IMG/VR virus record: IMGVR_UViG_3300044991_001466 | Source: a virus | Lineage: Duplodnaviria > Caudoviricetes | Strand: one strand, 5' to 3' | Length of the DNA stretch: 64,000 nucleotides | Part shown: piece after piece, positions 24,666 through 53,471 of the stretch | How the letters are laid out: each line of letters begins with the position of its first letter | Numbering within the stretch: position 1 is the first letter of the stretch | The notes under the pieces: model-generated | What the model was told of the DNA's origin: nothing | Seen by the model: only the letters and a program-made list of their open reading frames with translations | Database searches by the model: none | Program-made: the position numbers and the translations under genes

Positions 24666-25643
24666 ATGTACGATTGGTATAAATGGAAATTAATTGATAA
24701 ATTACAAAAAAATTCCAAAGCAATTATTGGAATTGGAGATAGCTTTACTCAAGGTCAGGGCGCATGTTCTATTGAGTTATGGAAAAAACATAATTGGGAT
24801 TTAGGTGGTGTTGGAATTAAAGATGAAAGAGAGTTACTCACATCTTTTTATGAAAATTCTTGGGTTAATAAATTATGTACAAATCATTTTACTGACCACA
24901 TACCAATTAATTTAGGTATGGTTGGAAGGGGTAATAGAGGTGCGGTAAAAGAACTTTATTTACATCCAGAACTTAATTTAGAATCTATAGAAGAAAAGAT
25001 AGTAATTTTCATGTTAACAGGTATTGAACGATTTGATTTTATACATAAAAATTTACATGAACATATTCATTTTTTAACAATTTGGCCAGACCCAATGGCA
25101 CAAGGAGACCACTCCAAATTATGGACAGAATATTACGAATCAATTTGGAGTGATAAATTTGGTATAATTGAAATGTTATTGAGTATAGCCGAAGCCAAAA
25201 CATGGTGTAAAGCCCATAATGCTAAATTATATTTAATAAGCGCATTTAGACCTGAATATGAAAGACAACCATTTATAAGAGGAATTATGGGTGATATTGA
25301 TGATGAATCAAATTATCTATATAAACAAACTGAATATATAAAAAGTTTAGTTGATATTATTGATTGGAAAAAATTTATTAGACCAAATGGATTTAAGTGT
25401 GTTAGTGATTTTCTTTGTTCATTAGAAAATAGAGATGATTTAATTGAAGAAATTGGGTCTGCAAAGTATTATGAATTTGCTGGAAAAATTAAAAAATTTA
25501 GTCCTAAAGGATATGTTACAAATTGTGCGCATCCATCTCAAAAAGGACACGAAGCAATTGCAAAATCAATATATGAATCAATCATTGAAGATTTAAATAA
25601 AGAAGAAGAAATAATAACAAATAAAACAAAAAATTTAATATAA
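24666..25643 (+). CDS. SGNH/GDSL-like hydrolase or acyltransferase
   Basis: Block I IGIGDSFTQG; block V CAHPSQKGH. Confidence 0.65.
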   Translation: MYDWYKWKLIDKLQKNSKAIIGIGDSFTQGQGACSIELWKKHNWDLGGVGIKDERELLTSFYENSWVNKLCTNHFTDHIPINLGMVGRGNRGAVKELYLHPELNLESIEEKIVIFMLTGIERFDFIHKNLHEHIHFLTIWPDPMAQGDHSKLWTEYYESIWSDKFGIIEMLLSIAEAKTWCKAHNAKLYLISAFRPEYERQPFIRGIMGDIDDESNYLYKQTEYIKSLVDIIDWKKFIRPNGFKCVSDFLCSLENRDDLIEEIGSAKYYEFAGKIKKFSPKGYVTNCAHPSQKGHEAIAKSIYESIIEDLNKEEEIITNKTKNLI

Positions 25644-34774: not shown

Positions 34775-36031
34775 ATGGAAAATAACACAAAAAAACTAAA
34801 TTTAGTTTACGATAAGTGGGATGACAACACAAAAAAACCAACACCAAACGGTAGTTGGGATGCCTCTAACTTAATAAACCATTTCATAAATGATTCATTT
34901 AAATACAATAAATTTGAGTTGAAAAATTGTAAATTAGAAGATGTTTATGAAAATAAAAATGAAAAATACTATTATTTTTTTACACACGGTAGAGAGGAAC
35001 TATCAAAAATTTTTGACAGAGAATTACCATTTGAAATTGATATATTAAACTGTTTAAAAGACTGCCCAAATTTTTATTTTGTTTACATTACAGAACATGA
35101 ACCAGATAATGAAAGTGGGTTCAGAATGTTACGAGAATTTATATCTTATCAAAAATTAAACGAAACACAATTTTACGTCATAAATAATAATGATAAACTT
35201 AATGAATATAAAATAAAATATAATAGTAATATAAATGTGCATTCATTGCAATTCATAGCTCACTCCTCAACAAAAGTTTTAGATTATGTTGGCGGGTGTA
35301 GTTTTATTCCTAACAAAACAGGTAAATTTGCTATGTTATTTAATAAATCCCCGAGATCTCAAAGGGCGTGTTTGTTATGTCTATTAATGAAAAATGGATT
35401 ACTTAACCAAATGAATTGGTCTTTTGTACCAACATATAATGTTAACATAGATGAAAGGTATTTTAAGGATTTATTAAGTGAAAATGATATAAATGACATT
35501 AAATCTGAGATTGATGATTTTTCTAAATTAGAAATTAAAATCAGTGATTTTGAGGAAGAAAAAAATTGGTTTAACAAACACGAACAACCAAATATGGCTG
35601 GGTTACCAAAAATAATGACAATACCAGAGTACCCAAAAAATTATGAAAATTCATATGTTAACATTGTTACCGAATCAATGTATTTTAAAAAGTATAATGT
35701 AATCCACATAACTGAAAAATCATTTAGACCATTTTATTATTATCAAATCCCATTAATATTGGCGTCCGAAGGACATGTTAAAAAAATAAAAGAGAGATAT
35801 GGGTTAGATTTTTTTGACGACATCATTGACCACAGTTATGATGGTATTAAAAATGATAGAGATAGATTATATGCTTTTGTAAAAGAAATTGAAAGAATAC
35901 ATCAAAATAAAGACCAAATCATTGAATTTTATAAAAAAAATCAAGAAAGATTTGAAGATAATAAAAGAAAAATCATTAAAAATTTAGATTTAGTTAATGA
36001 TGAATATGAATTTTTTAAAAACTTAATTTAA
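34775..36031 (+). CDS. 'TEK-family' putative glycosyltransferase, paralogue 4
   Basis: FNKSPRSQR, NIVTES, HITEKSFRPF, GLDFFDDIIDHSYD. Confidence 0.55.
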   Translation: MENNTKKLNLVYDKWDDNTKKPTPNGSWDASNLINHFINDSFKYNKFELKNCKLEDVYENKNEKYYYFFTHGREELSKIFDRELPFEIDILNCLKDCPNFYFVYITEHEPDNESGFRMLREFISYQKLNETQFYVINNNDKLNEYKIKYNSNINVHSLQFIAHSSTKVLDYVGGCSFIPNKTGKFAMLFNKSPRSQRACLLCLLMKNGLLNQMNWSFVPTYNVNIDERYFKDLLSENDINDIKSEIDDFSKLEIKISDFEEEKNWFNKHEQPNMAGLPKIMTIPEYPKNYENSYVNIVTESMYFKKYNVIHITEKSFRPFYYYQIPLILASEGHVKKIKERYGLDFFDDIIDHSYDGIKNDRDRLYAFVKEIERIHQNKDQIIEFYKKNQERFEDNKRKIIKNLDLVNDEYEFFKNLI

Positions 36032-36741
36032 TGGGAACATTATGGACTTTTGGTTGCAGTTTTACTGCGGAGTGGTATCCAGTGGGATATGAAAACCCAT
36101 CGACATACGATGAATATAAAAAATTTAAAGGAGGTACGTTACCTGATGTGTGGCCAATTATTTTAGGTAAAAAATTAAATTATGACCTTAGAAACTGTGC
36201 CTTTGGTGGGTCATCAAATTATAATATATTAAAACAGTTTATTAATGCAATTGATAACATAAATGAGGGGGACATATTAATATTTGGATGGACAAGTTTA
36301 CTTAGATTTTGTGCTGTTAGTGAATCGGAACATAAAATTATTGAAATGTTACCAAGATATTCATATGATGTAAATGTTGGTTATTCAAAAACAACTGTTG
36401 ATGAAATATTGGTTAATAGGTCACATCCATTATGGGCGGAAGAGGTTAATAATTGGATTAAGTTTATTAATGATTATTGTTGTTTAAAAAATGTTGAGAT
36501 ATTTCATTGGAATAGTGATATTTTGTTGTTTGACGAGAACTCCAAATTTATTGATGATAAAAAATACATATTACCACCAAAAGGAAATCAGAATGAAACA
36601 ATGATTAATTATTTTACCAATAATATAGGAACAATACAAGATGAAACTGATGGTAAAATTAATGATTTACATTTAGGTGAGTTTGGTCACATTAAACAAG
36701 CTGAATATTTTTATAATCACATAAAAAAACACATAAAATGA
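36031..36741 (+). CDS. SGNH/GDSL-like protein
   Basis: WTFGCSFT; GGSSN; DLHLGEFGH. Confidence 0.6.
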   Translation: MGTLWTFGCSFTAEWYPVGYENPSTYDEYKKFKGGTLPDVWPIILGKKLNYDLRNCAFGGSSNYNILKQFINAIDNINEGDILIFGWTSLLRFCAVSESEHKIIEMLPRYSYDVNVGYSKTTVDEILVNRSHPLWAEEVNNWIKFINDYCCLKNVEIFHWNSDILLFDENSKFIDDKKYILPPKGNQNETMINYFTNNIGTIQDETDGKINDLHLGEFGHIKQAEYFYNHIKKHIK

Positions 36742-37361
36742 GGTTAATAACATTTGGAGATAGTTGGACTGCGGGTCATGGTATTGAAACTGATATAAAA
36801 TATAAAGAGGAACCATTTCCAGATGCATTCACACAAAAATTAAGGGATATGAATTCGTGGCCAAGATGGGTTGCACAAAAACTTGATTGTCCATATGTTA
36901 ATCTTGGTGTTTGTGGTTATGGAAACGAATACATTTTAAATGAGATTGATGGAATTAAAAATTTTGGATTATTATCTAAAGACGACATCATCATTGTTAT
37001 GTTCTCATATCCATATAGATATAAATCTAAAGATAGTCACAATGTTGTTGAGATATTCTTACTAATGGAAGAAATTTTAAAAGATTATAAACATTTTTAT
37101 TTTAATTCATTTTACCCATCGTTTAGGGAGGAGGATGTCGACACCAAAAAACTACCATCATATTTCATTAATCCCGATGGGTGTGTTTCAGATATTTTAA
37201 GGGAATATGAAATTAAAAATGATGAATCAGTTTGGGAGTATGGTAATAGAAGTGTATGGAATGACGAGGAAAATTTTTACGAGGGAGATTATCACCCAAA
37301 TTTAAATGGTTATAAAATAATTGGAGATTACATATATGAACAAATTAATAAAATTATATAA
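36738..37361 (+). CDS. SGNH/GDSL-like protein
   Basis: ITFGDSWTAGHG; NLGVCGYGN; DYHPNLNGY. Confidence 0.7.
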   Translation: MRLITFGDSWTAGHGIETDIKYKEEPFPDAFTQKLRDMNSWPRWVAQKLDCPYVNLGVCGYGNEYILNEIDGIKNFGLLSKDDIIIVMFSYPYRYKSKDSHNVVEIFLLMEEILKDYKHFYFNSFYPSFREEDVDTKKLPSYFINPDGCVSDILREYEIKNDESVWEYGNRSVWNDEENFYEGDYHPNLNGYKIIGDYIYEQINKII

Positions 37362-41660: not shown

Positions 41661-43148
41661 ATGAGAACAGTATTAATAGGTTCGGACTTTATGTACGATA
41701 AAGATGGTAATTTAAAACCCATTGAAATAAACACTGCAGTAGGATGGGATGGACTTCAGAAGATTGAGGATAATATAGATTGTTTGGATTTAACGGGTTT
41801 ATACCAATTTATTGAAACTAAAGGATTTACATCCGTACATTATGTGGGCGATATACCATATATAAACGAAACGTTAGAAACTTATTATAGTGGAAGTTCA
41901 ATCACATATGAATATCATTTGGTTAATAAATTAGCCATCACAGTGCCATTTATTGAAGATAATGATGAAACATTAATTATTAGAAGTTCATATGACACAA
42001 CAGCATTGGTAGATGATACATATTGTAAAGATAAGGTTAATTTTTTAAATTTAATTAAAGATTCTTCATTCGGTTCTCAATTTGCTTATTTAGATGAATC
42101 AAACCAATTAGTGTCAAACATTACAACAATTAATGATAATGGGGAACACCCAAACTTTATTTTAAAGGCGAGATATCCTTCTTACGATAAAGAAGTTTAT
42201 CCTAAATTTTTTAAGGTATCAACACAAGAAGAATTGAATACAATTTTAGAGAATGTAACATCGGATTACTTCTTAATGGAGAATTATTGTAACACCACCA
42301 ATAATTTTGAAGGACATGTAAAAGTTATAAGAAGTTTAAATATATTGTATCCACCAACATTAGAATCAATACAAATTGGTCAATACACTAGAATTAATCA
42401 AAATATAATTTTTTCTAATGTAGAATATGATTCAATAACTCATATGTTAAATTCGGAATATAGAGAGAGTTATATAACATTAACAACTATTAAAGGAGTA
42501 CCCAAATTATTAGACACAGATTTAGTAGAAATGCCAGATGGTACGTTTAAAACTGCATTAGATTTAAACGTTGGGGATGTAATCAAAACAATTGATATAC
42601 CAAATCCAAATGGTGTGGATAATCAATCATATCTTGCAAATTTTGAAATAACATACGAAACACTTGTATCAGGTACAACTTATTCAACAAATAAAATTGT
42701 CAATAAAAAAAGAGTAAATTTATTAACATATATTAATCGATTAACTTTTGATGATAATAGTACATGGGAAGATACGTCAATTTCTTCTTATTTAATTGAA
42801 AGAGATAATGTTATACAATTTGAAGAAATACATGGTATAAAAATGGGAGATGTTGTTTTATTATTAGATACAACAGAGGGATTGGTAGATTTTATTAGAA
42901 AAAATGTTGTAGAAAATGTAGAGACTAAAACAATATTTTCCGGTTGGTTTATTACAGTAGAAAATGCTCATCTATTTTTAACTAAAACATCATCTACAAA
43001 TAATGAATCTTTTGTTTCCATTGAACATAATGCTGGTGAAGCTTGTTATTATTGCTCCGGCGGGTCTCAATCTGCTTACTGCCCTAAATCGGCACCATAT
43101 TGTGGAGCATATGGATATTGTGTATATTCTCCTGAATATTGTCCATAA
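41661..43148 (+). CDS. Circularly permuted ATP-grasp-like domain + Hint domain + C-terminal Cys/Tyr-rich peptide
   Basis: N-terminal GSDFMYDKDGNLKPIEINT (D...ExN), FILKARYP, LMENY. Hint-like KLLDTDLVEMPDGTFKTALDLNVGDVI ... IKMGDVV ... FITVENAHLFL ... SIEHN, followed by AGEACYYC...YCP. Confidence 0.7.
   Translation: MRTVLIGSDFMYDKDGNLKPIEINTAVGWDGLQKIEDNIDCLDLTGLYQFIETKGFTSVHYVGDIPYINETLETYYSGSSITYEYHLVNKLAITVPFIEDNDETLIIRSSYDTTALVDDTYCKDKVNFLNLIKDSSFGSQFAYLDESNQLVSNITTINDNGEHPNFILKARYPSYDKEVYPKFFKVSTQEELNTILENVTSDYFLMENYCNTTNNFEGHVKVIRSLNILYPPTLESIQIGQYTRINQNIIFSNVEYDSITHMLNSEYRESYITLTTIKGVPKLLDTDLVEMPDGTFKTALDLNVGDVIKTIDIPNPNGVDNQSYLANFEITYETLVSGTTYSTNKIVNKKRVNLLTYINRLTFDDNSTWEDTSISSYLIERDNVIQFEEIHGIKMGDVVLLLDTTEGLVDFIRKNVVENVETKTIFSGWFITVENAHLFLTKTSSTNNESFVSIEHNAGEACYYCSGGSQSAYCPKSAPYCGAYGYCVYSPEYCP
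42504..43031 (+). other. Hint (intein-like) domain, about 176 aa; Cys1 absent, terminal His-Asn present
   Basis: Block A pattern with Lys at the Cys1 position, a second GD repeat, block F xVE..H.F and block G HN; the +1 residue is Ala. Confidence 0.65.
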
Positions 43149-43155
43149 ATTATTG

Positions 43156-43190
43156 TAAAATAAAATAAAATAAAATAAAATAAAATAAAA
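43156..43190 (+). repeat. Perfect (TAAAA)7 microsatellite
   Basis: Seven exact copies; the last A is the A of ATG 43190. Confidence 0.95.
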
Positions 43191-43279
43191 TGGCAAAAAT
43201 TATAACAAATACCGAAATTAATACGTTAAATACAACCCTAACAACTATTGGTAATTTAATAGTAACCGCAAATAGTTAG
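43190..43279 (+). CDS. 29-aa Thr/Asn/Ile-rich smORF (not in the ORF track)
   Basis: MAKIITNTEINTLNTTLTTIGNLIVTANS*, with an A-rich leader and occupying most of the intergenic gap. Confidence 0.5.
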   Translation: MAKIITNTEINTLNTTLTTIGNLIVTANS

Positions 43280-43301
43280 TTGTAAAAATAATAGGTTAAA
43301 A

Positions 43302-43601
43302 ATGAAATTAGATTTTAAAGAAATATCAACGGCTTGGTATAATAAACTTATACATTCTAATGAATTAAAAAAATTAGCTGATGATAGATTTGATATTTGT
43401 TTAGAATGTCCGTCTAAAAAAGAAATTTTCAAAGGTAAACAATGGTCTCTCAGGTGTGGAGAATGTGGGTGCCCTTTAGCAGGTAAAGTATATACATCTA
43501 ATACATATTTGGATAAAAACGGATCATGTCCATTAGAAAAGTGGAAAGAAGTTGAGATTGAATATTTAAAAAATTTTAAAAAAATGAAAACTTTTATATA
43601 A
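43302..43601 (+). CDS. Small Cys-rich metal-binding protein (DUF6171-like)
   Basis: RFDICLECP...CGECGCPL...SCPLEKW. Confidence 0.7.
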   Translation: MKLDFKEISTAWYNKLIHSNELKKLADDRFDICLECPSKKEIFKGKQWSLRCGECGCPLAGKVYTSNTYLDKNGSCPLEKWKEVEIEYLKNFKKMKTFI

Positions 43602-43602
43602 A

Positions 43603-44286
43603 GTGTCTTATTTAATTAATAATGAACTTATTTGGGTTTCTATTCCAAAATGTGCAAGTTACTCTATTGAACGAGCACTTAGAAATTCAAAACTAAAATT
43701 AGATACCTACGACCCAAATATTATTATAGACGAGCACCTTCACGTCCCATTAACTGAGTGTTTATCACTATGGGGAAACAAAGAAACTGTTTGTATAACC
43801 AGAGATTATGTGCATAGATGGATGAGCTCTTTAAATTTTATTTGGGATAAAATAGAATTTGAAAGTGATTATACCCTTATTCGTAAATGGGAAGATGTTG
43901 ATAATGAATTTTTATATAAAATGTTTGATACCAAGTTTCTCAATGATTTACATTCATTTGACGGCAATGATTTAGAAACAAAAAATTGTTTTTTAAAATT
44001 AGTAAAAGAAAAATACGACATTTTAAAAAAAATGCCATTTATAATGATAACCTTAGTTTCCCCAAACTTTTTTAAATCCAATAGAAAATGTACATATGAG
44101 TTTGACATTAAAGAAATAGATAAATTTGTTGATTTTATTGAAGATAGATTTGGTGAAAGATTAATTATAGAGAGCACTAACCAATCTACAAAAAGACCAA
44201 ATAAAATTATAATAAATGATGAATTAAAATCATTTATTTTAGAAAATTTTGAAAATAGATTTAAAAAAAGAAATCAATTAATATAG
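43603..44286 (+). CDS. Sulfotransferase-like protein (Sulfotransfer_2-like)
   Basis: 5'-PSB WVSIPKCASYSI; 3'-PB ITRDYVHRWMS; terminal xxN.S. Confidence 0.6.
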   Translation: MSYLINNELIWVSIPKCASYSIERALRNSKLKLDTYDPNIIIDEHLHVPLTECLSLWGNKETVCITRDYVHRWMSSLNFIWDKIEFESDYTLIRKWEDVDNEFLYKMFDTKFLNDLHSFDGNDLETKNCFLKLVKEKYDILKKMPFIMITLVSPNFFKSNRKCTYEFDIKEIDKFVDFIEDRFGERLIIESTNQSTKRPNKIIINDELKSFILENFENRFKKRNQLI

Positions 44287-44289
44287 TAT

Positions 44290-44763
44290 ATGCAAATATA
44301 TAAAAACATATTAACAAATGATTTTTGTGATATTTTAATAGAAAAAATTAAGAATGAATGTGTATTAAGTGAATCTCATAAAAAAGGGTGGTATGTTTGG
44401 TTAATTTGGGGACAACAACCCAGTCAACCACTAAGTAGAGAAAAGTGGAATGAAGAAATCTATAATATGGTAACTGATGAGTTAAATAGATGTAATTTTC
44501 CTAAACATAAAACAATGTGGCTACAAATGACAGAATATAAAGATGGTAGGTGGTTACGAAGACATGTAGATGGTGCAGGAAATAAAACAATAATAATTTT
44601 GTTATCCAATGAATTTGTGGGTGGAGATACATATATAAATGATAGTGTTGTAAATTTAAAAAAGGGCGATGGTGTTATATTTGATGGGGGTTATCAATAT
44701 CATGAAGTAACACCAGTAACAGAAGGAACACGATACGCTTTAAATTTTTGGTTATATAAATAA
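44290..44763 (+). CDS. 2OG-Fe(II) oxygenase (prolyl-4-hydroxylase-like)
   Basis: YKDGRWLRRHVD...ILLSNEFVGGDT...YHEVTPVTEGTRYALNFW. Confidence 0.85.
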   Translation: MQIYKNILTNDFCDILIEKIKNECVLSESHKKGWYVWLIWGQQPSQPLSREKWNEEIYNMVTDELNRCNFPKHKTMWLQMTEYKDGRWLRRHVDGAGNKTIIILLSNEFVGGDTYINDSVVNLKKGDGVIFDGGYQYHEVTPVTEGTRYALNFWLYK

Positions 44764-44772
44764 CAATATAAT

Positions 44773-45816
44773 ATGGTAGATTTAAAGAATTATGTTTGTA
44801 GTGTTCCTTTTAATTCATTAGAAATACATAATAATGTTTGTTTTGTTTGTTGTCCATCTTGGTTACCAAATAAGATTGAAATATCAGAAGTACCACTAAA
44901 GGATATGTGGAATAGTGAACCAATCGTTGATATTAGAAATTCTATATTAGATGGTTCATTTAAATATTGTAATAAAGAACTTTGTCCTTATTTAAGTAAA
45001 TTAATAAACTATGGTGTGACATCTGGTCCAGTCAGACTGAAATCAGATTCAAATATTAATAATCCAATTATTGAAAATAATACACCCGATTATTTGGTAA
45101 TGAATTTTGATAGAACTTGTAATTACAAATGTCCATCATGTAGAGTTGATTTAATTGTTGAAAATAGTGAAGGGATAAAAAGAGTTGAAAAAACAATTGA
45201 AGATATTGATAAATATTATTCAGCAAATGTAAAAACTTTATACATAACAGGTTCTGGAGACCCATTTGTTTCAGTCGGGTTTAGAAATTATTTAAGAAAT
45301 TTTAATCCAAAAAAATATCCAAATTTAAAATCAATACACTTACATACCAATGCCTCAATGTGGAATAAAGAAATGTGGGATAGTATGCCAAATATTCACA
45401 AATATGTCGGTACCTGTGAAATCAGTATAGATGCAGGAACAAAAGACACATATGAAAATAAAACAAGATTAGGTGGTAATTGGGAAAATTTATTGAGTAA
45501 TTTAAAATTTATTAGTACCATACCGAATATTAATGTAAAAACTTCCTTTGTTGTACAAGATAGTAACTATACTGAAATGGAAACATTTTATAATTTAATG
45601 TATTCTATTTTTGGTAAAAAAGTAAATGTGTTTTTTGGTAAAATAACAAATTGGGGTACATTTTCAGAGGGTGAATTCAAATTTAAACAGGTATGGGATA
45701 CCGAACACCCAGAACACCAATTATTTAAAAAAGAATTTAATAAGGTATGGAAAAACACAAATCTATTTCATAATCTATATGAGTTTATTGAGAGCACTAA
45801 TAAAACATTGATATAA
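44773..45816 (+). CDS. Radical SAM protein with N-terminal twitch/SPASM-like Cys motif
   Basis: CSVPF...VCCPSW...CNKELCP; CNYKCPSC; ITGSGDPF; ISIDAG. Confidence 0.88.
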   Translation: MVDLKNYVCSVPFNSLEIHNNVCFVCCPSWLPNKIEISEVPLKDMWNSEPIVDIRNSILDGSFKYCNKELCPYLSKLINYGVTSGPVRLKSDSNINNPIIENNTPDYLVMNFDRTCNYKCPSCRVDLIVENSEGIKRVEKTIEDIDKYYSANVKTLYITGSGDPFVSVGFRNYLRNFNPKKYPNLKSIHLHTNASMWNKEMWDSMPNIHKYVGTCEISIDAGTKDTYENKTRLGGNWENLLSNLKFISTIPNINVKTSFVVQDSNYTEMETFYNLMYSIFGKKVNVFFGKITNWGTFSEGEFKFKQVWDTEHPEHQLFKKEFNKVWKNTNLFHNLYEFIESTNKTLI

Positions 45817-45830
45817 TTTAACATAATAAA

Positions 45831-46400
45831 ATGGTTATTACAATAATCGCCGAACCAAGAAGTGGGTCAACAAATTTAGCAGATTATTTTAAATCAAATA
45901 AAGATTTTACTATTTTACAAGAACCATTAAATAAATATGGAAAATCGTATCAAAAAAATAATCCAATTAATAAATGGACTTATAATACAAAACACTTATT
46001 AATTAAGGAAATATATGACCCAAATAAAAACTTAAAAGAATTAATACAATTTTCAGATAAAATAATTATTCTTTATAGAGAAAATAAAAATGAACAATTA
46101 GAATCTTGGTTAGTTGCAAAGGTAACCAATAATTGGCGGGGTAAATGGGTAAATAGTAAAATTCGTATACCTAACAAAGAATTAAAAATTCAGTTTTTTA
46201 ATAAAATGGTTAATGAGTTTGAAATAGAATATAGATTAAATAATGATATGTTTAAAATATCATATGAAGAACTTTATTACAAGAATGGTTTTGAAAAAAT
46301 AGTGAATTATCTTAATATTGATAGTGTTAAGAATATTGATTTTCCATATGGTCAAAAATATAGGTTGGACAAAATAGAAATAAATAAAACTTTAATATGA
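45831..46400 (+). CDS. Stf0-like sulfotransferase
   Basis: IIAEPRSGSTNL, ILQEP, LYRENK..Q..SW, ISYEEL. Confidence 0.65.
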   Translation: MVITIIAEPRSGSTNLADYFKSNKDFTILQEPLNKYGKSYQKNNPINKWTYNTKHLLIKEIYDPNKNLKELIQFSDKIIILYRENKNEQLESWLVAKVTNNWRGKWVNSKIRIPNKELKIQFFNKMVNEFEIEYRLNNDMFKISYEELYYKNGFEKIVNYLNIDSVKNIDFPYGQKYRLDKIEINKTLI

Positions 46401-47101
46401 TAAGGATATATTACCACATATATGTCATTGATGGCGTTGAATCTATAATAAATGAACAACTGACATTAATAAAAAAATACATTAATCAACCATATTCATT
46501 AACTATTGGCATCTCAGTATCAGAAAATAATAATTCAGTAGACGATATGATTAAATTAATTTATGGGTATGATTCAAAAATTATAATCGGTGATACTAAA
46601 TTAATGGGTAACGAGTTTATAACATTAAATTTAATAGAAAGAGATAAATCATCATTTGATGACACTGACTACATTTTGTATTTACACACAAAGGGAGCTT
46701 CTAAACAAATGAATTCCGAATCTATCCGATGGAGAAATGTAATGCAATTACATAATATTCAATATATTGATAACGTATTTGGAATTTTGGATAATGAAGT
46801 TTTTAACACATATGGTTTTTTATTAGAAGTAGTAAGTAACCCTACAAATATAATGTACTCTGGTAATTTTTGGTGGATGACCGGACAATACGCTAAAACA
46901 ATAGACATAAGTAATGTTGATATTACAAATAGATGTAATGCAGAGTTACAATATATTCAAATGGGAACGGATTGGAAACCCTATTCAATAATTAGAAAGG
47001 GAGATAATTGGAAACCTTATTCATACTTTATTAAGGACAAAGGGGGGGGGATAGAAAAACGTAATATTAACACAAAATTAAGTTTTAATAAATTAATATA
47101 A
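46397..47101 (+). CDS. Hypothetical glycosyltransferase-like protein (YLHTKG/GNFWW family)
   Basis: ILYLHTKGAS, WR..M, YSGNFWW, R..AE motifs. Confidence 0.5.
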   Translation: MIRIYYHIYVIDGVESIINEQLTLIKKYINQPYSLTIGISVSENNNSVDDMIKLIYGYDSKIIIGDTKLMGNEFITLNLIERDKSSFDDTDYILYLHTKGASKQMNSESIRWRNVMQLHNIQYIDNVFGILDNEVFNTYGFLLEVVSNPTNIMYSGNFWWMTGQYAKTIDISNVDITNRCNAELQYIQMGTDWKPYSIIRKGDNWKPYSYFIKDKGGGIEKRNINTKLSFNKLI

Positions 47102-47111
47102 TTATGAATAT

Positions 47112-47915
47112 ATGGACCCGTTAAAATATTGGACGTTAGATGGATTTGAAATATCATCATTTAAGTTTAATTTAAATGAAAGAAAGGGAAAGACGTATAA
47201 AACATGCGGTTCCGATGGTACTGGCTTGTGTAGCTATGCCTATAATGAATTAGGATTTAGGGGAGATAGTGTAAAAAAAGAGGGATTTAAAGTAATGTCA
47301 TTAGGTTGTTCTCATACCGAAGGTGTCGGTGTTAATTACAATGATATGTGGTCAACACGATTTACAAATCGTATACCCAATGGTGTTAATATGAATTTTG
47401 GTACAGGTGGTAGAAGTAATGATTTTATTACTAGATGTCTATTAACATATTACGATGTGGTAAAACCTGATTTGGTATTAATAATGTATACATCACCATT
47501 AAGAAGAGAAATATACACAAAAGATGGTAATATAGAACCATTTATTCCCGCTCGTTCATGGGGATATATGGGTGAAACTGAAGACGGTAAACAAACACAA
47601 AGTTATTTAACTGAATTACAAAATGATAATGAAGATTTAATTAATTGGTATAAAAATCATCAACTAATAAAATTATTCTTAGAAACTAAAAATTGTAATT
47701 GGATTTGGAATGGGTCGTTTGGTATACCAAGTGAATTTAAAGAGCCTAACAGATTTGATGGTGAATATCAAATTTTTATCGATAAGGGTGTTGAAGGGGG
47801 ACATGCTGGCCCCGAACAAAATAAAAGTTATGCAAATAAATTATACGACTTCATAACTGAAAATTTCCCAAATTACATAAATGTTTTATCAAAAAATAAA
47901 CAAAGTTTGATTTGA
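47112..47915 (+). CDS. SGNH/GDSL-like protein
   Basis: YNELGFRG; SLGCSHTEGVG; NFGTGGRSND; GGHAGP. Confidence 0.6.
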   Translation: MDPLKYWTLDGFEISSFKFNLNERKGKTYKTCGSDGTGLCSYAYNELGFRGDSVKKEGFKVMSLGCSHTEGVGVNYNDMWSTRFTNRIPNGVNMNFGTGGRSNDFITRCLLTYYDVVKPDLVLIMYTSPLRREIYTKDGNIEPFIPARSWGYMGETEDGKQTQSYLTELQNDNEDLINWYKNHQLIKLFLETKNCNWIWNGSFGIPSEFKEPNRFDGEYQIFIDKGVEGGHAGPEQNKSYANKLYDFITENFPNYINVLSKNKQSLI

Positions 47916-50683: not shown

Positions 50684-51342
50684 GTACATTAAATAATTTG
50701 GCTAAAATACACGGAACGGATAAGTCTTCAGATAATCACAATTATTGTGTTAAATATGAAAAGTATTTACCATTTAACAGATACGATAAGTTAAACATAT
50801 TGGAAATTGGTGTCTTAGATGGTAAATCACTATTAACTTGGAAGGATTATTTTTATCGTTCTAATATTTTAGGTGTTGACATTAATCCTGATTGTAAAAA
50901 ATATGAAGAACCACGAATCTCTATCGAAATTGGTTCGCAGGATGATGGTAAATTCTTATCAAGAACTTGGCAACAATATGGCCCATTTGATATGATATTA
51001 GATGATGGGTCACATATGAATGAACACGTAATTTATTCATTTGAACATTTATTCGGTTCAGTTAAATCGGGTGGTGTGTACGTAATTGAGGACGTTGCAA
51101 CCTCATACTTCCCTTGGTACGGTGGGGGTTTAAATGACCCTAAGAGTATGATGGAATACTTCAAGAAATTGACTGACGACATTAACTTTAGAGGTGTAGA
51201 GAACTTAGATGACCAAGATGCGGTGTGGGATAGGCGTGAAGATAAATTAATACCCTATTCAAGTAAAGTACAACCTGATTGTAGAACTGATATAGAATCA
51301 ATAACCTTCCTTAACGGAATTATAATAATAACAAAAAGATAA
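50680..51342 (+). CDS. Class I SAM methyltransferase (sugar O-methyltransferase, MycE/ElmM-like)
   Basis: ATGA-coupled start at 50680; HGTDK, ILEIGV, GSQDD, GPFDMILDDGSH, GGVYVIED. Confidence 0.8.
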   Translation: MSTLNNLAKIHGTDKSSDNHNYCVKYEKYLPFNRYDKLNILEIGVLDGKSLLTWKDYFYRSNILGVDINPDCKKYEEPRISIEIGSQDDGKFLSRTWQQYGPFDMILDDGSHMNEHVIYSFEHLFGSVKSGGVYVIEDVATSYFPWYGGGLNDPKSMMEYFKKLTDDINFRGVENLDDQDAVWDRREDKLIPYSSKVQPDCRTDIESITFLNGIIIITKR

Positions 51343-53471
51343 TGGGATATACACAATTTACTGAAGATGTGTTTGTGGTCGATTGCTGGCCAGATAATAA
51401 AGATAAAGAAAACGTTTTAAAGAAATTACTAACAAGTTTAAAGGTTTATAATTGTCCAATTATATTATGTGGACATTATCCTGTAAATCCTGATATTCAA
51501 AAATTGGCAGATTATTACATTTACGATTCAAATAACGATGTTTTATTGGAGAAAGATTTTGAAGAGTATGGAGTTAATAGTGATAGATGGACTGACATGG
51601 GAAACTATAAAATAACCAATAAAGTTGAGTTTCATCATGATTATGCCATTTGGTTAACAATGAAAAACGCATTTAATTTGGTTAAACAATTAGGAAAAAA
51701 ATATATTCATTTCTTGGAATACGATAACTTACCCGACGAAACTCAATATCGTCAGGCGTTTATGGAATATATGAGAAGTAACGATGCGGTTGTGTACGAA
51801 TATTCGGAAGGCTCAACCAAAGAAGAAAACCCATACAGTGCAACCTATCTATTTTCAATAAAAACTGATATCGCAATCGAATTAGTAAGTAAAATTAACA
51901 GTAAAGAAGAATACTTTAAAAATAAACCAAATAGATGGCAGTTAGAAAAGGTATTTTATCAAACATTAAAAAGTATCACTAATAATATTTTTGTAAGTAA
52001 GTACATCGCTAACGATAACGAACTAAACATATTTGCCGCATGGAATAGAAATGGGATTACAAAAAATGGTGCTCGTTTACAAACCTATTTAGGTGTGGAC
52101 GATTTTAATCAACTATATGTTCATTTCATTTCAGGATTTTCAGAGAAACCCGCTAACTTAGATTATTTGGTTGAAATTAATTACGGGAGTTTTAAAAAAT
52201 TCTTAACGGTTAAGAAGGGACAATACATTTTAGAGAAAATTGATGAATATCGTCAAGGACAATCTTTTCAAGTTTTCTATAGAGGAGTTGAAATTTTTAA
52301 CCAAGAATTAACAAATGATGTTGAGGAATTTAAAAGAAAAAATAAAGTAATCAAACGTAATAGTGGAATTAATAATAAGAAAAATATCATAGCACATTTT
52401 GTTGATGGTCCATTTTTAGAAATTAAAGAAGACGGTGATAATTTATACAACGTACAATTCATAAATAAGAAAAACAATAAAATTGAATTTGAAATTAATT
52501 TAAAGAGTAATCATTGGTGTAGGTCTGCAAAAAAATACTACGTTGATTGGTTAGTTAAGATTAAAGGAATTGATAATGATTTTTATTATGAATACGGTTT
52601 AGACTTTAAAGGTAAACAGGTGATGATTTGTTTTGAATCAAAATCTTTGGGAGATAGTTTAGCTTGGGTACCATATGTTGAGAAGTTTAGAAAAGAAAAT
52701 AATTGTGAGGTTGTTTGTTCAACGTTCCATAATGATTTGTTTAAATCAGAATATCCTAATATTAAATTTGTGTTACCCGGCACTTCAGTAGATGACGTAT
52801 ATGCCTTATATCGTTTAGGTATATTTTATGATGATAAACGTAATATTGATTACACCAAACATATTACCGACCCTAAAAAAGAACCACTATTAAAAGTTGC
52901 GTCTGATATTTTAGGTTTATCTTATGAAGAATTGAGACCCAAGTTAAAAAAATTAGGTAAAAAGAAACAAAAAAGAGTTTGTATTGGAATACATTCAACC
53001 GCTCAATGTAAATATTGGAATAATCCAACTGGTTGGCAAGATGTGGTTAACTACCTTAAAAATGAAGGATATGAGGTTAGACTATTATCAAAAGAGGAAA
53101 ATGGTTACATGGGGAACACACACCCAACAGGAATTACACTTCAACCAACAGGTTCAATAGATAAATTAATAAAAACTTTGCAGGAGTCTGAATTATTTAT
53201 AGGTATAAGTAGTGGTTTAAGTTGGTTATCATGGGCAACTGAAACCCCAACTGTTATTATTTCTGGTTTCACCGACGTTGATTTAGAACCAATAGATGGT
53301 GTAACAAGAATAATTAATAAAAATGTTTGTAATAGTTGTTGGTCAAATCACGATTTTGATCCTGGAGATTGGAATTGGTGTCCCGAATTAAAAAACACGG
53401 AAAGACAGTTTGAATGTTCAAAATCCATCACATCAACACAAGTCATAGATGAAATTAAAAAATTAATATAA
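51342..53471 (+). CDS. GT-like N-terminal domain + TibC/Aah-like (BAHT) protein O-glycosyltransferase
   Basis: HFVDGPFLEI, SKSLGDSLAW, CKYWNN..GW, FIGISSGLSWLSWA, and the Cys motif CNSCW...WCP...RQFECSKSIT as in TibC. Confidence 0.82.
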   Translation: MGYTQFTEDVFVVDCWPDNKDKENVLKKLLTSLKVYNCPIILCGHYPVNPDIQKLADYYIYDSNNDVLLEKDFEEYGVNSDRWTDMGNYKITNKVEFHHDYAIWLTMKNAFNLVKQLGKKYIHFLEYDNLPDETQYRQAFMEYMRSNDAVVYEYSEGSTKEENPYSATYLFSIKTDIAIELVSKINSKEEYFKNKPNRWQLEKVFYQTLKSITNNIFVSKYIANDNELNIFAAWNRNGITKNGARLQTYLGVDDFNQLYVHFISGFSEKPANLDYLVEINYGSFKKFLTVKKGQYILEKIDEYRQGQSFQVFYRGVEIFNQELTNDVEEFKRKNKVIKRNSGINNKKNIIAHFVDGPFLEIKEDGDNLYNVQFINKKNNKIEFEINLKSNHWCRSAKKYYVDWLVKIKGIDNDFYYEYGLDFKGKQVMICFESKSLGDSLAWVPYVEKFRKENNCEVVCSTFHNDLFKSEYPNIKFVLPGTSVDDVYALYRLGIFYDDKRNIDYTKHITDPKKEPLLKVASDILGLSYEELRPKLKKLGKKKQKRVCIGIHSTAQCKYWNNPTGWQDVVNYLKNEGYEVRLLSKEENGYMGNTHPTGITLQPTGSIDKLIKTLQESELFIGISSGLSWLSWATETPTVIISGFTDVDLEPIDGVTRIINKNVCNSCWSNHDFDPGDWNWCPELKNTERQFECSKSITSTQVIDEIKKLI

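What the first reader, a model, noticed from the sequence alone, without database searches (positions are those of the whole stretch)
43302..47915. Shared C-terminal tail (usually K-x-[LF]-I-stop) on the tailoring enzymes
Seen: six of the seven consecutive genes after the Hint fusion and smORF end alike: KMKTFI* (43601), KRNQLI* (44286), NKTLI* (45816), NKTLI* (46400), FNKLI* (47101), KQSLI* (47915). The same ending occurs at 25643 (TKNLI*), 36031 (FKNLI*) and 53471 (IKKLI*); 21931 (HKII*) and 37361 (NKII*) are near matches. The folds are unrelated (Cys protein, two sulfotransferases, radical SAM, GT-like, SGNH), and several have a short low-complexity linker before the tail. Inference: a C-terminal docking or targeting tag that recruits enzymes to a common scaffold, virion-assembly site or compartment (analogous to PDZ-ligand or encapsulin cargo tags), or a degradation tag.
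Basis: partly seen in the sequence, partly recalled or inferred. Interest (0 to 1): 0.75.

Follow-up and report, generated by a model that had tools for sequence, protein, structure and literature searches.

The report
Shared end-tag on phage tailoring enzymes
In this large freshwater T4-like phage and hundreds of uncultured relatives, many unrelated modifying enzymes encoded just after one ligase-plus-self-cutting-peptide gene end in the same selected tail (Lys/Asn, Thr/Ser, Leu, Ile), which looks like an undescribed address or docking label whose reader is still unknown.

Summary
Nine of 66 window genes end in [LF]I-stop (expected 0.8; p=9e-8), including six of seven consecutive genes (p=2e-11).

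The signal is in the peptide, not the DNA. All Leu and Ile codons and all three stops are used, and the DNA word is not enriched overall. Orthologues down to about 40% identity keep the ending behind a variable linker.

Across 1,757 ORFs from the window and 88 related contigs, families are bimodal: 47 almost never carry the tail and 26 almost always do. Consensus is K-rich, K/N, T/S, L/I, I/L-COOH. Tagged families are tailoring enzymes: 2OG oxygenases, radical SAM, sulfotransferase-like, SET, SGNH and GT-like. Precursor-supply enzymes and fibres are untagged.

Tagged genes follow a permuted ATP-grasp ligase-Hint-Cys-peptide gene. Positions +1 to +4 are 77-97% tagged, also in 45 independently anchored loci. 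A complete 335-kb relative confines the tag to this cluster. Distant radical-SAM homologues and a cultured cyanophage's similar cluster lack it. In an AF2 model the tag is the only disordered segment.

The reader of the tag is unidentified. No PDZ domain was found, and the one complex prediction gave no answer.

This scan found the same tag earlier on other genomes.

The parts
41661..43148 (+). Untagged anchor gene. It encodes a circularly permuted ATP-grasp ligase domain (about residues 1-285), a Hint domain ending in His-Asn, and a 38-aa Cys/Tyr-rich peptide.
   Evidence: The AF2 model of residues 1-285 has pLDDT 89.6. Foldseek PDB hits 1-46 are glutathione synthetase, gamma-glutamylcysteine synthetase, YgiC/YjfC, GspS/TryS and Cp1B chains. 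The Hint domain gives weak intein hits. 0 of 61 family members carry the tail. Tagged genes follow it.
43190..43279 (+). Conserved 29-aa small ORF (ends ...IGNLIVTANS), untagged. It always lies just after the ligase gene.
   Evidence: Homologous small ORFs sit after the ligase gene in all ligase clades, including the f32 variant.
43302..43601 (+). 99-aa Cys-rich, Zn-ribbon-like protein. Tag KMKTFI.
   Evidence: 46 of 57 family members are tagged. Orthologue tails with synonymous changes are listed. The Zn-ribbon hits are weak.
43603..44286 (+). Sulfotransferase-like enzyme. Tag KRNQLI.
   Evidence: 69 of 70 family members in the loci are tagged, as are 118 of 120 cluster representatives in the 5.8-billion-protein database. 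Atlas look-alikes carry Sulfotransfer_2.
44290..44763 (+). 2OG-Fe(II) oxygenase, the one untagged enzyme of the run (ends FWLYK). It forms a fixed pair with the radical SAM gene downstream.
   Evidence: Pfam PF13640. All 24 tagless members of this subfamily sit 9-11 nt upstream of the radical SAM gene. Paralogues at 30-44% identity carry an 8-17 aa extension ending KTLI or NII.
44773..45816 (+). Radical SAM enzyme. Tag NKTLI.
   Evidence: Pfam PF04055. 82 of 85 family members are tagged. Homologues of 41% identity or more carry the extension past the HN(L/F)xx(L/F) end of the fold, and distant homologues do not. The AF2 model has mean pLDDT 94.9, and residues 342-347 are the only segment under 50.
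45831..46400 (+). Sulfotransferase-like enzyme (N-terminal PRSGST motif). Tag NKTLI.
   Evidence: 68 of 69 family members are tagged. The Sulfotransfer_3 hit is weak.
46397..47101 (+). GT-A-like (DUF8361) glycosyltransferase-like enzyme. Gly-rich linker, then tag FNKLI.
   Evidence: 8 of 11 family members are tagged. Atlas structure look-alikes are glycosyltransferases.
47112..47915 (+). SGNH/DUF6071-like enzyme. Tag KQSLI.
   Evidence: 48 of 78 family members are tagged. Untagged subfamilies end in YIP, LIK or VTV. The Pfam lead is weak.
34775..36031 (+). 418-aa protein of unknown family. Tag FKNLI, probably genuine.
   Evidence: 5 of 8 family members are tagged, for example NFFQSLI at 33% identity.
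36738..37361 (+). GDSL/SGNH-like enzyme. Near-tag NKII.
   Evidence: Pfam GDSL hit below the family cut-off. 7 of 10 family members are tagged.
24666..25643 (+). 325-aa protein (weak GDSL/DUF6071 lead). Ending TKNLI fits the tag but is untested.
   Evidence: No orthologue was present in the fetched loci.
51342..53471 (+). 709-aa GT9-like glycosyltransferase. Ending IKKLI is probably a coincidental helix end, not the tag.
   Evidence: Only 4 of 17 family members end this way. Orthologues end KLIN, KLLK, KLLKL or KLLF.

Best explanation
The ending is a portable short linear motif. It is a disordered linker followed by K/N, T/S/K, L/I, I/L as the very last residues, with a free carboxylate. It has been added independently to at least 26 unrelated families of tailoring enzymes. 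I read it as an address or docking label that brings these enzymes to one common, highly conserved partner belonging to the ligase-Hint module. That partner could be the ligase-Hint protein itself or something assembled on it. In this way many interchangeable enzymes could act on one substrate in the infected cell. Shown: the tag exists, is selected at the peptide level, is an add-on absent from distant homologues, is disordered, is confined to this cluster, and co-occurs with the ligase-Hint gene. Inferred: that it works by binding, and the identity of the partner.
For: (1) Enrichment. 9 of 66 genes, p=9e-8. In a complete 335-kb relative, 16 of 38 genes in the 40-kb cluster carry the ending against 24 of 363 elsewhere (Fisher p=2e-8).
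(2) Peptide-level selection. All 6 Leu codons, all 3 Ile codons and all 3 stops are used at the tag, roughly in line with genome-wide usage, with ATA over-represented at the last codon. The DNA word TTRATHTRR is not enriched in the window (58 observed against 64 +/- 9 expected). In homologous pairs averaging 43% identity, right-aligned identity is 10-32% in the linker. It rises to 60% at -1 and 49% at 0, with aliphatic similarity of 97% and 87%. Untagged families show no such rise.
(3) Bimodality. Of 82 families, 47 are 10% tagged or less and 26 are 60% tagged or more.
(4) Add-on. Radical SAM homologues of 41% identity or more carry a 6-14 aa extension past the end of the fold, and more distant ones do not. 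The tag is the only low-confidence segment of a pLDDT-95 model.
(5) Link to the ligase. All 34 loci with full flanks hold the ligase-Hint gene or its f32 variant. Genes at +1 to +4 are 90-97% tagged. In 45 loci anchored only on the ligase they are 77-86% tagged.
(6) Negative control. The similar cluster of cyanophage S-CAM8 (carbamoyltransferase, five 2OG oxygenases, a fibre) has no tag on any of 14 proteins. The GenBank phage collection has no ligase homologue.
(7) The tag consensus is identical across ligase clades of 22-80% identity, including f32 loci that lack the Cys peptide. This points to a conserved reader that is not the variable peptide.
(8) The only untagged enzyme in the run is a fixed neighbour of a tagged one. 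This fits one tag per complex.
Against: No reader has been identified. The tag is only 4-5 residues long, so recognition could be by a host protein that I cannot see. Co-occurrence with the ligase gene could reflect shared ancestry of one phage clade rather than a physical interaction. There is no lineage-specific co-variation between the tag and the ligase. A few tag-like endings lie elsewhere in the relative genome (10 observed against 2.8 expected). Some of these are on SGNH enzymes, others on unrelated proteins.
Confidence: 0.55

Rival explanations
1. The tag is the acyl substrate of the neighbouring ligase. The permuted ATP-grasp domain would activate the free C-terminal carboxylate of each tagged enzyme. 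It would then join it to an amine, such as the Hint-released Cys peptide, its conserved Lys, the small-ORF peptide or a polyamine. The tag would then be a ligation handle rather than a passive docking site.
For: The ligase domain's 46 best structural matches belong to the glutathione synthetase / YgiC-YjfC / GspS / Cp1B group. From established biochemistry (my knowledge), glutathione synthetase and GspS activate the C-terminal carboxylate of a peptide. The title of Pederick et al. 2023, seen, names YgiC and YjfC as peptide-spermidine ligases. The tag must be the very last residues. Tag and ligase co-occur strictly. The conserved E-x-N, K and R residues indicate an active enzyme.
Against: The ligase has more obvious substrates in cis or next door: its own peptide, and the small-ORF peptide with its conserved ...ANS end. 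Covalently modifying 5-14 different enzymes has no evident purpose. No adduct can be seen in silico.
Confidence: 0.12
2. The tag is a degron or unfoldase-recognition signal read by a host AAA+ protease such as ClpXP. It would limit the lifetime of the tailoring enzymes or remodel them.
For: A Lys-rich stretch followed by a non-polar C-terminus resembles, from memory, the MuA-type ClpX signal RRKKAI-COOH. The tag is disordered and exposed.
Against: It would be wasteful for a lytic phage to mark a whole co-expressed pathway for destruction. The strict preference for T/S at -2 and L at -1, and the tight link to one gene, are not explained. The host is unknown.
Confidence: 0.12
3. The tag is a localisation signal of another kind. 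It could be weak membrane association (polybasic stretch plus hydrophobic end) near a lipid-linked glycan pathway, or loading of the enzymes into the prohead like encapsulin cargo peptides.
For: Several tagged enzymes look glycan-directed (GT-like, SGNH; the carbamoyltransferase family is tagged in only 25% of its members). Fibre genes flank the cluster.
Against: Two hydrophobic residues are too few for a membrane anchor, and the motif is position-specific. In the complete relative the head protease and scaffold end in ...FLSK and ...RIKEMMRKIK, unlike the tag, and the capsid gene lies about 150 kb from the cluster. Radical SAM, 2OG and PAPS-dependent enzymes need cytoplasmic cofactors.
Confidence: 0.1
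4. There is no peptide function. The ending would be a by-product of AT-rich composition, of overlapping start/stop signals, or of a DNA or translation-termination signal.
For: The genome is 27-31% G+C. ATA is somewhat over-used as the last codon (65% of Ile codons there against 41% genome-wide). Many stops overlap the next start.
Against: The DNA word is not enriched. Synonymous codons and all three stops are used. Families in the same operons are either tagged or not. The rest of a 335-kb relative genome is close to background. Tags also occur before long intergenic gaps.
Confidence: 0.03

Closest known systems
Encapsulin cargo-loading peptides and microcompartment encapsulation peptides
   Same: A short terminal peptide is appended through a flexible linker to unrelated enzymes. 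It is portable between families and directs them to one shared protein partner.
   Different: Those peptides are longer and need not be the very last residues. Their reader (the shell protein) is encoded next to the cargo. Here the tag is 4-5 residues at the free C-terminus and no shell gene is nearby. The capsid gene of a complete relative is about 150 kb away.
Class I PDZ-binding motifs (x-S/T-x-hydrophobic-COOH)
   Same: Absolute C-terminal position, Thr/Ser at -2 in 50% of tails, and an aliphatic last residue in about 90%.
   Different: No PDZ domain was detected in a complete relative genome, while all 14 control genomes scored. Position -1 is also strongly fixed (Leu or Ile, 88%), which is not typical of PDZ ligands.
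Shared C-terminal tails of phage replication proteins that dock on one hub (T4 gp45 clamp binders; T7 acidic tails on gp5)
   Same: Phages give several unrelated proteins the same short C-terminal tail so that they can dock on one partner.
   Different: Those tails are acidic or aromatic and sit on DNA-handling proteins with known hubs. This tail is basic and aliphatic, sits on tailoring enzymes, and has no known hub.
RiPP leader peptide / RRE recognition
   Same: A set of tailoring enzymes encoded next to a peptide precursor must be brought to one substrate by a short recognition peptide.
   Different: The logic is inverted. Here the short peptide is on every enzyme, and the conserved partner, if it is the ligase-Hint precursor, would be on the substrate side. 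No RRE/PqqD-like domain was detected.
MuA-type ClpX recognition signal (C-motif 2, RRKKAI-COOH)
   Same: Basic residues followed by a small non-polar C-terminus on an exposed tail.
   Different: The resemblance is recalled, not tested. The ClpX signal is not known to mark a whole enzyme set or to require T/S-L-I.

Membership tests
Class I PDZ ligand | Motif at the free C-terminus | tested here: met
   The stop codon follows directly in 26 families, and orthologues keep the position.
Class I PDZ ligand | Ser/Thr at -2 and a hydrophobic residue at 0 | tested here: inconclusive
   Thr 34% plus Ser 16% at -2. Lys and Asn are also common there. Ile plus Leu make up 89% at position 0.
Class I PDZ ligand | A PDZ-domain reader | tested here: not met
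   PF13180 and PF17820 give no match in the complete relative G001 or in the partial G002, while the controls are positive. PF00595 was not searched. A host PDZ protein cannot be excluded.
Encapsulin / microcompartment cargo tag | A terminal peptide shared by unrelated cargo enzymes | tested here: met
   26 families, including 2OG, radical SAM, SET, SGNH and sulfotransferase-like enzymes.
Encapsulin / microcompartment cargo tag | A shell protein gene in the same operon | tested here: not met
   The best Gp23-family match in G001 (the capsid gene) is at 125 kb, and the cluster lies at 255-295 kb. Weaker fragments match at 13 and 303 kb. No shell-like family occurs among recurrent neighbours.
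T4 capsid-targeting sequence | An N-terminal leader removed by the head protease at L/I-x-E | tested here: not met
   The tag is C-terminal and lacks Glu. The scaffold and protease ends of G001 differ from it.
Substrate of a GspS/YgiC-type permuted ATP-grasp ligase | A ligase of that fold encoded alongside | tested here: met
   Foldseek hits 1-46 belong to this group, although TM-scores are modest at 0.30-0.46.
Substrate of a GspS/YgiC-type permuted ATP-grasp ligase | The free peptide C-terminal carboxylate is activated and amidated | not testable with these tools
   This needs an enzyme assay or mass spectrometry.
ClpX C-motif-2 degron | ClpX-dependent recognition of the tail | not testable with these tools
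   The host is unknown. The resemblance to RRKKAI rests on recall only.

The most novel reading that the evidence does not exclude
The tag is a ligation handle. The phage's permuted ATP-grasp ligase would activate the C-terminal Ile carboxylate of every tagged enzyme and join it to an amine supplied by its own Hint-released cysteine-rich peptide or by the adjacent small-ORF peptide. That would be a phage-encoded, ATP-dependent protein C-terminal conjugation system with a 4-5-residue recognition motif.
Probability: 0.1. Interest if true: 0.95.

Novelty: new variant of a known kind. Interest (0 to 1): 0.72.

Why it matters
Short portable address tags are how cells and viruses organise enzymes without membranes. 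This tag is unusually small (4-5 residues). It is shared by at least 26 enzyme families, is widespread in freshwater giant phages, and is tied to an undescribed ligase-Hint-peptide gene (268 ligase-bearing stretches in IMG/VR). Finding its reader would show how a phage assembles a plug-and-play modification pathway. It could also give a minimal tag for co-localising or ligating proteins. The prediction is directly testable with peptides and two or three recombinant proteins.

Tried and rejected
1. Complex prediction. I folded the full ligase-Hint protein with ATP and 2 Mg against the last 35 residues of the 46397-47101 product. The verdict was "no answer". It is not evidence either way.
2. DNA-level motif. 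Rejected.
3. Co-variation of the tag with ligase clade. None found; the consensus is identical in all clades.
4. PDZ reader in the phage. None found.
5. Likeness to head scaffold or protease ends, a lead from earlier notes. Not seen in G001. An Hsp20 gene exists far from the cluster and was not pursued.
6. GenBank phages. No DNA match, and no match to the ligase, the radical SAM enzyme or the 189-aa sulfotransferase-like protein.
7. Prokaryote genome scan for the ligase. No relative found.
8. Contigs of distant tagged radical SAM homologues. Too short to show context.
9. Profile search of the ligase-Hint protein against PDB sequences. Only weak Hint and ATP-grasp hits.
10. Literature searches. 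No description of the tag or the layout was found. One search call failed on syntax.
11. No whole genome is held for the window. A complete relative was used instead.
Full report
**Observation.** The window is AT-rich (27-39% G+C). It carries T4-type tail-fibre genes on both sides of an enzyme cluster. A simple non-overlapping ORF set gives 66 genes. Nine of them end in [LF]I-stop. All nine are on the + strand between 24.6 and 53.5 kb, and six belong to the seven consecutive genes at 43302-47915. The internal [LF]I dipeptide frequency of the same proteins is 1.18%. That gives p=8.8e-8 for 9 of 66 and 1.9e-11 for 6 of 7. [KRN]x[LF]I stands at 8 C-termini against 0.22% per internal position.

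**DNA or peptide?** The endings are mostly TTA-ATA-TAA, so I tested a DNA-level signal.
- The word TTRATHTRR occurs 58 times on both strands, against 64 +/- 9 expected from a second-order Markov model. Only the in-frame gene-end copies stand out.
- In orthologues the tail is kept while codons change: TTA, TTG, CTA and CTT for Leu; ATA, ATT and ATC for Ile; TAA, TAG and TGA for the stop. Amino-acid swaps are conservative: L, I, M or V at -1 and I, L or M at 0.
- Over 394 distinct tail DNAs, all six Leu codons, all three Ile codons and all three stops occur, roughly as in the rest of the genes. ATA is modestly over-used at the last codon.

The constraint is therefore on the peptide.

**Relatives.** The radical SAM and SGNH-like proteins retrieved 88 IMG/VR loci from contigs of up to 335 kb. 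I clustered 1,757 ORFs from the window and these loci into families.
- Tail frequency is bimodal. Of 82 families with four or more members, 47 are tagged in 10% of members or fewer and 26 in 60% or more; 14 of these are tagged in every member.
- The logo from 391 distinct tails is as follows:

| Position | Residues |
|---|---|
| -6 to -4 | Lys enriched 3-4 fold |
| -3 | K 51%, N 20% |
| -2 | T 34%, S 16%, K 17% |
| -1 | L 69%, I 19% |
| 0 | I 64%, L 25% |

- In homologous pairs averaging 43% identity, right-aligned identity is 10-32% in the linker. It is 60% at -1 and 49% at 0, with aliphatic similarity of 97% and 87%. Untagged families show no rise at their ends.
- This is the signature of a short linear motif behind a variable linker.

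**Who carries it.** Tagged families are:
- several 2OG-Fe(II) oxygenase families;
- the radical SAM enzyme;
- two sulfotransferase-like families;
- SET-domain proteins;
- SGNH/GDSL-like proteins;
- a GT-A-like DUF8361 protein;
- a small Zn-ribbon-like protein;
- several families of unknown function.

Untagged are the ligase-Hint protein, the APS-kinase-like gene and its two small neighbours (a 126-aa protein and a 71-aa protein), the GT-FkbM fusion, the nucleotide-sugar genes on the minus strand, and the fibres. So tailoring enzymes carry the tag and precursor-supply enzymes do not.

One enzyme in the window's run is untagged: the 2OG oxygenase at 44290-44763. All 24 members of its tagless subfamily sit 9-11 nt upstream of the tagged radical SAM gene. 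More distant paralogues carry an 8-17-residue extension ending in the tag.

**Is it an add-on?**
- For the 227-aa sulfotransferase-like protein, 118 of 120 cluster representatives (46-100% identity) keep N-x-L-I.
- For the radical SAM enzyme I searched 1.8 billion representatives. Homologues of 41% identity or more extend 6-14 residues past the conserved HN(L/F)xx(L/F) end of the fold and finish with the tag. More distant homologues stop at that motif or carry unrelated ends.
- An AF2 model of the enzyme has mean pLDDT 94.9. Its only segment below 50 is residues 342-347, which is the tag.

**Genome-wide control.** No genome is held for the window. I therefore fetched a complete 335,630-bp relative, G001, whose ligase is 66% identical.

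| Region of G001 | Genes | [LIMF][IL] observed | Expected | [KRN]x[LIMF][IL] observed | Expected |
|---|---|---|---|---|---|
| 40-kb cluster | 38 | 16 | 1.3 | 9 | 0.29 |
| Rest of genome | 363 | 24 | 12.2 | 10 | 2.8 |

Fisher's test gives p=2e-8 for the two-residue ending and 1e-5 for the four-residue pattern. Two of the outlying tagged genes are SGNH-like; others look coincidental.

**Link to the ligase-Hint gene.**
- In the loci, the run of tagged genes starts directly after the gene at 41661-43148.
- All 34 loci with full flanks hold this gene or a variant, f32. The variant has the same N-domain and Hint, then one to three further Hint/intein-like units, and ends VHNK with no Cys peptide.
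- Genes at +1 to +4 are tagged in 90-97% of cases. Genes at +13 or beyond, or at -7 to -9, are tagged in about 10%.
- To avoid circularity I anchored a new search on the ligase domain alone (268 stretches, best 80 kept). In the 45 loci that do not overlap the first set, genes at +1 to +4 are tagged in 77-86%. In 37 of 43 loci, at least three of the five downstream genes are tagged.
- The ligase has no relative in GenBank phages, nor in a pattern-limited scan of species-representative prokaryote genomes.
- Cyanophage S-CAM8 has a comparable cluster (carbamoyltransferase, five 2OG oxygenases, a fibre) but no ligase. None of its 14 proteins carries the tag.
- The tag consensus is the same in all ligase clades (22-80% identity) and in f32 loci.

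**What the ligase is.** An AF2 model of residues 1-285 has pLDDT 89.6. Its 46 best PDB matches by Foldseek are glutathione synthetases, one gamma-glutamylcysteine synthetase, YgiC/YjfC, glutathionylspermidine and trypanothione synthetases, and Cp1B. TM-scores are modest, at 0.30-0.46. By established biochemistry, glutathione synthetase and the glutathionylspermidine/trypanothione synthetases activate the C-terminal carboxylate of a small peptide and condense it with an amine. YgiC and YjfC are described as peptide-spermidine ligases (title of Pederick et al. 2023, seen). This makes a second reading possible, in which the tag's free carboxylate is the ligase's substrate. Against it, a conserved small ORF (43190-43279, ending ...IGNLIVTANS) follows the ligase gene in every clade. 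It offers a more obvious acyl or amine partner.

**Reader of the tag.**
- I found no PDZ domain in G001 or G002.
- The head protease and scaffold of G001 end in ...FLSK and ...RIKEMMRKIK, unlike the tag.
- The single complex prediction (ligase-Hint with ATP and Mg, against a 35-residue tagged tail) returned no answer and counts neither way.

The partner remains unknown. Within +/-10 kb, the ligase-Hint protein (f5 or its f32 variant) was the only untagged gene family present in all 34 loci with full flanks; a conserved small ORF also accompanies the ligase in every clade examined.

**Verdict.** The tag is real, selected and portable. It is most likely an address or docking label for the enzymes of one phage pathway centred on the ligase-Hint-peptide gene (confidence 0.55). 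Rivals are:
- a ligation handle (0.12);
- a degron (0.12);
- another localisation signal (0.10);
- no peptide function (0.03).

I found no paper describing it. The scan itself reported the same tag earlier on other genomes. My tests were made independently on this window and agree with those reports.

Noticed in passing
L057-L063, L065, L078, L080 (e.g. L060:3179-5914, L080:6063-7922): This is a variant of the ligase-Hint gene (family f32). After the first Hint (ending SHN) come one to three further intein-like Hint units, each starting CF..GT and ending HN, separated by two-residue spacers. The protein ends VHNK or VHNKV, with no Cys-rich peptide. Tagged enzymes still follow it.
   Followed up: partly
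window 43190-43279 (+): A 29-aa small ORF (MAKIITNTEINTLNTTLTTIGNLIVTANS) is conserved directly after the ligase gene in all clades. Variants end ...ANS, ...KHS or ...KHL; in f32 loci it is a 50-aa version. It may be a substrate or helper of the ligase.
   Followed up: partly
window 43156-43189: About seven tandem copies of AAAAT lie between the ligase-Hint stop codon and the small ORF.
   Followed up: no
window 44290-44763 and 44773-45816: The tagless 2OG oxygenase and the tagged radical SAM gene form a fixed pair, with a 9-11 nt gap in all 24 cases. This suggests a two-enzyme complex that needs only one tag.
   Followed up: partly
window 43256-43432 (-): An antisense ORF overlapping the Zn-ribbon gene recurs in relatives (family f38) and ends in two aliphatic residues. 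It is almost certainly a spurious ORF and should not be counted as tagged.
   Followed up: no
G001:C1:126835-127140 (L097:12835-13140): In the complete relative, the 101-aa gene right after the major capsid gene ends ...VSNQKLI, which is tag-like and far from the cluster. It has no Pfam match and its meaning is unknown.
   Followed up: partly
L136 and L162 (both from IMGVR_UViG_3300042892_005961): One 211-kb contig carries two ligase-Hint genes about 38 kb apart. I did not check whether each has its own run of tagged genes.
   Followed up: no
window, upstream of most starts (e.g. 44290, 44773, 45831, 47112): No Shine-Dalgarno-like purine run is visible upstream of the start codons. The leaders are A/T-rich, and stops often overlap the next start (ATGA, TAATG). 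This may hint at a host with SD-independent initiation.
   Followed up: no
L182 (Synechococcus phage S-CAM8, NC_021530.1 28109-44582): A cultured marine cyanomyophage has a similar block of a carbamoyltransferase and five 2OG oxygenases next to a tail fibre gene, but no ligase-Hint gene and no tag. One of its 2OG oxygenases is annotated 'DNA endonuclease', probably wrongly.
   Followed up: partly
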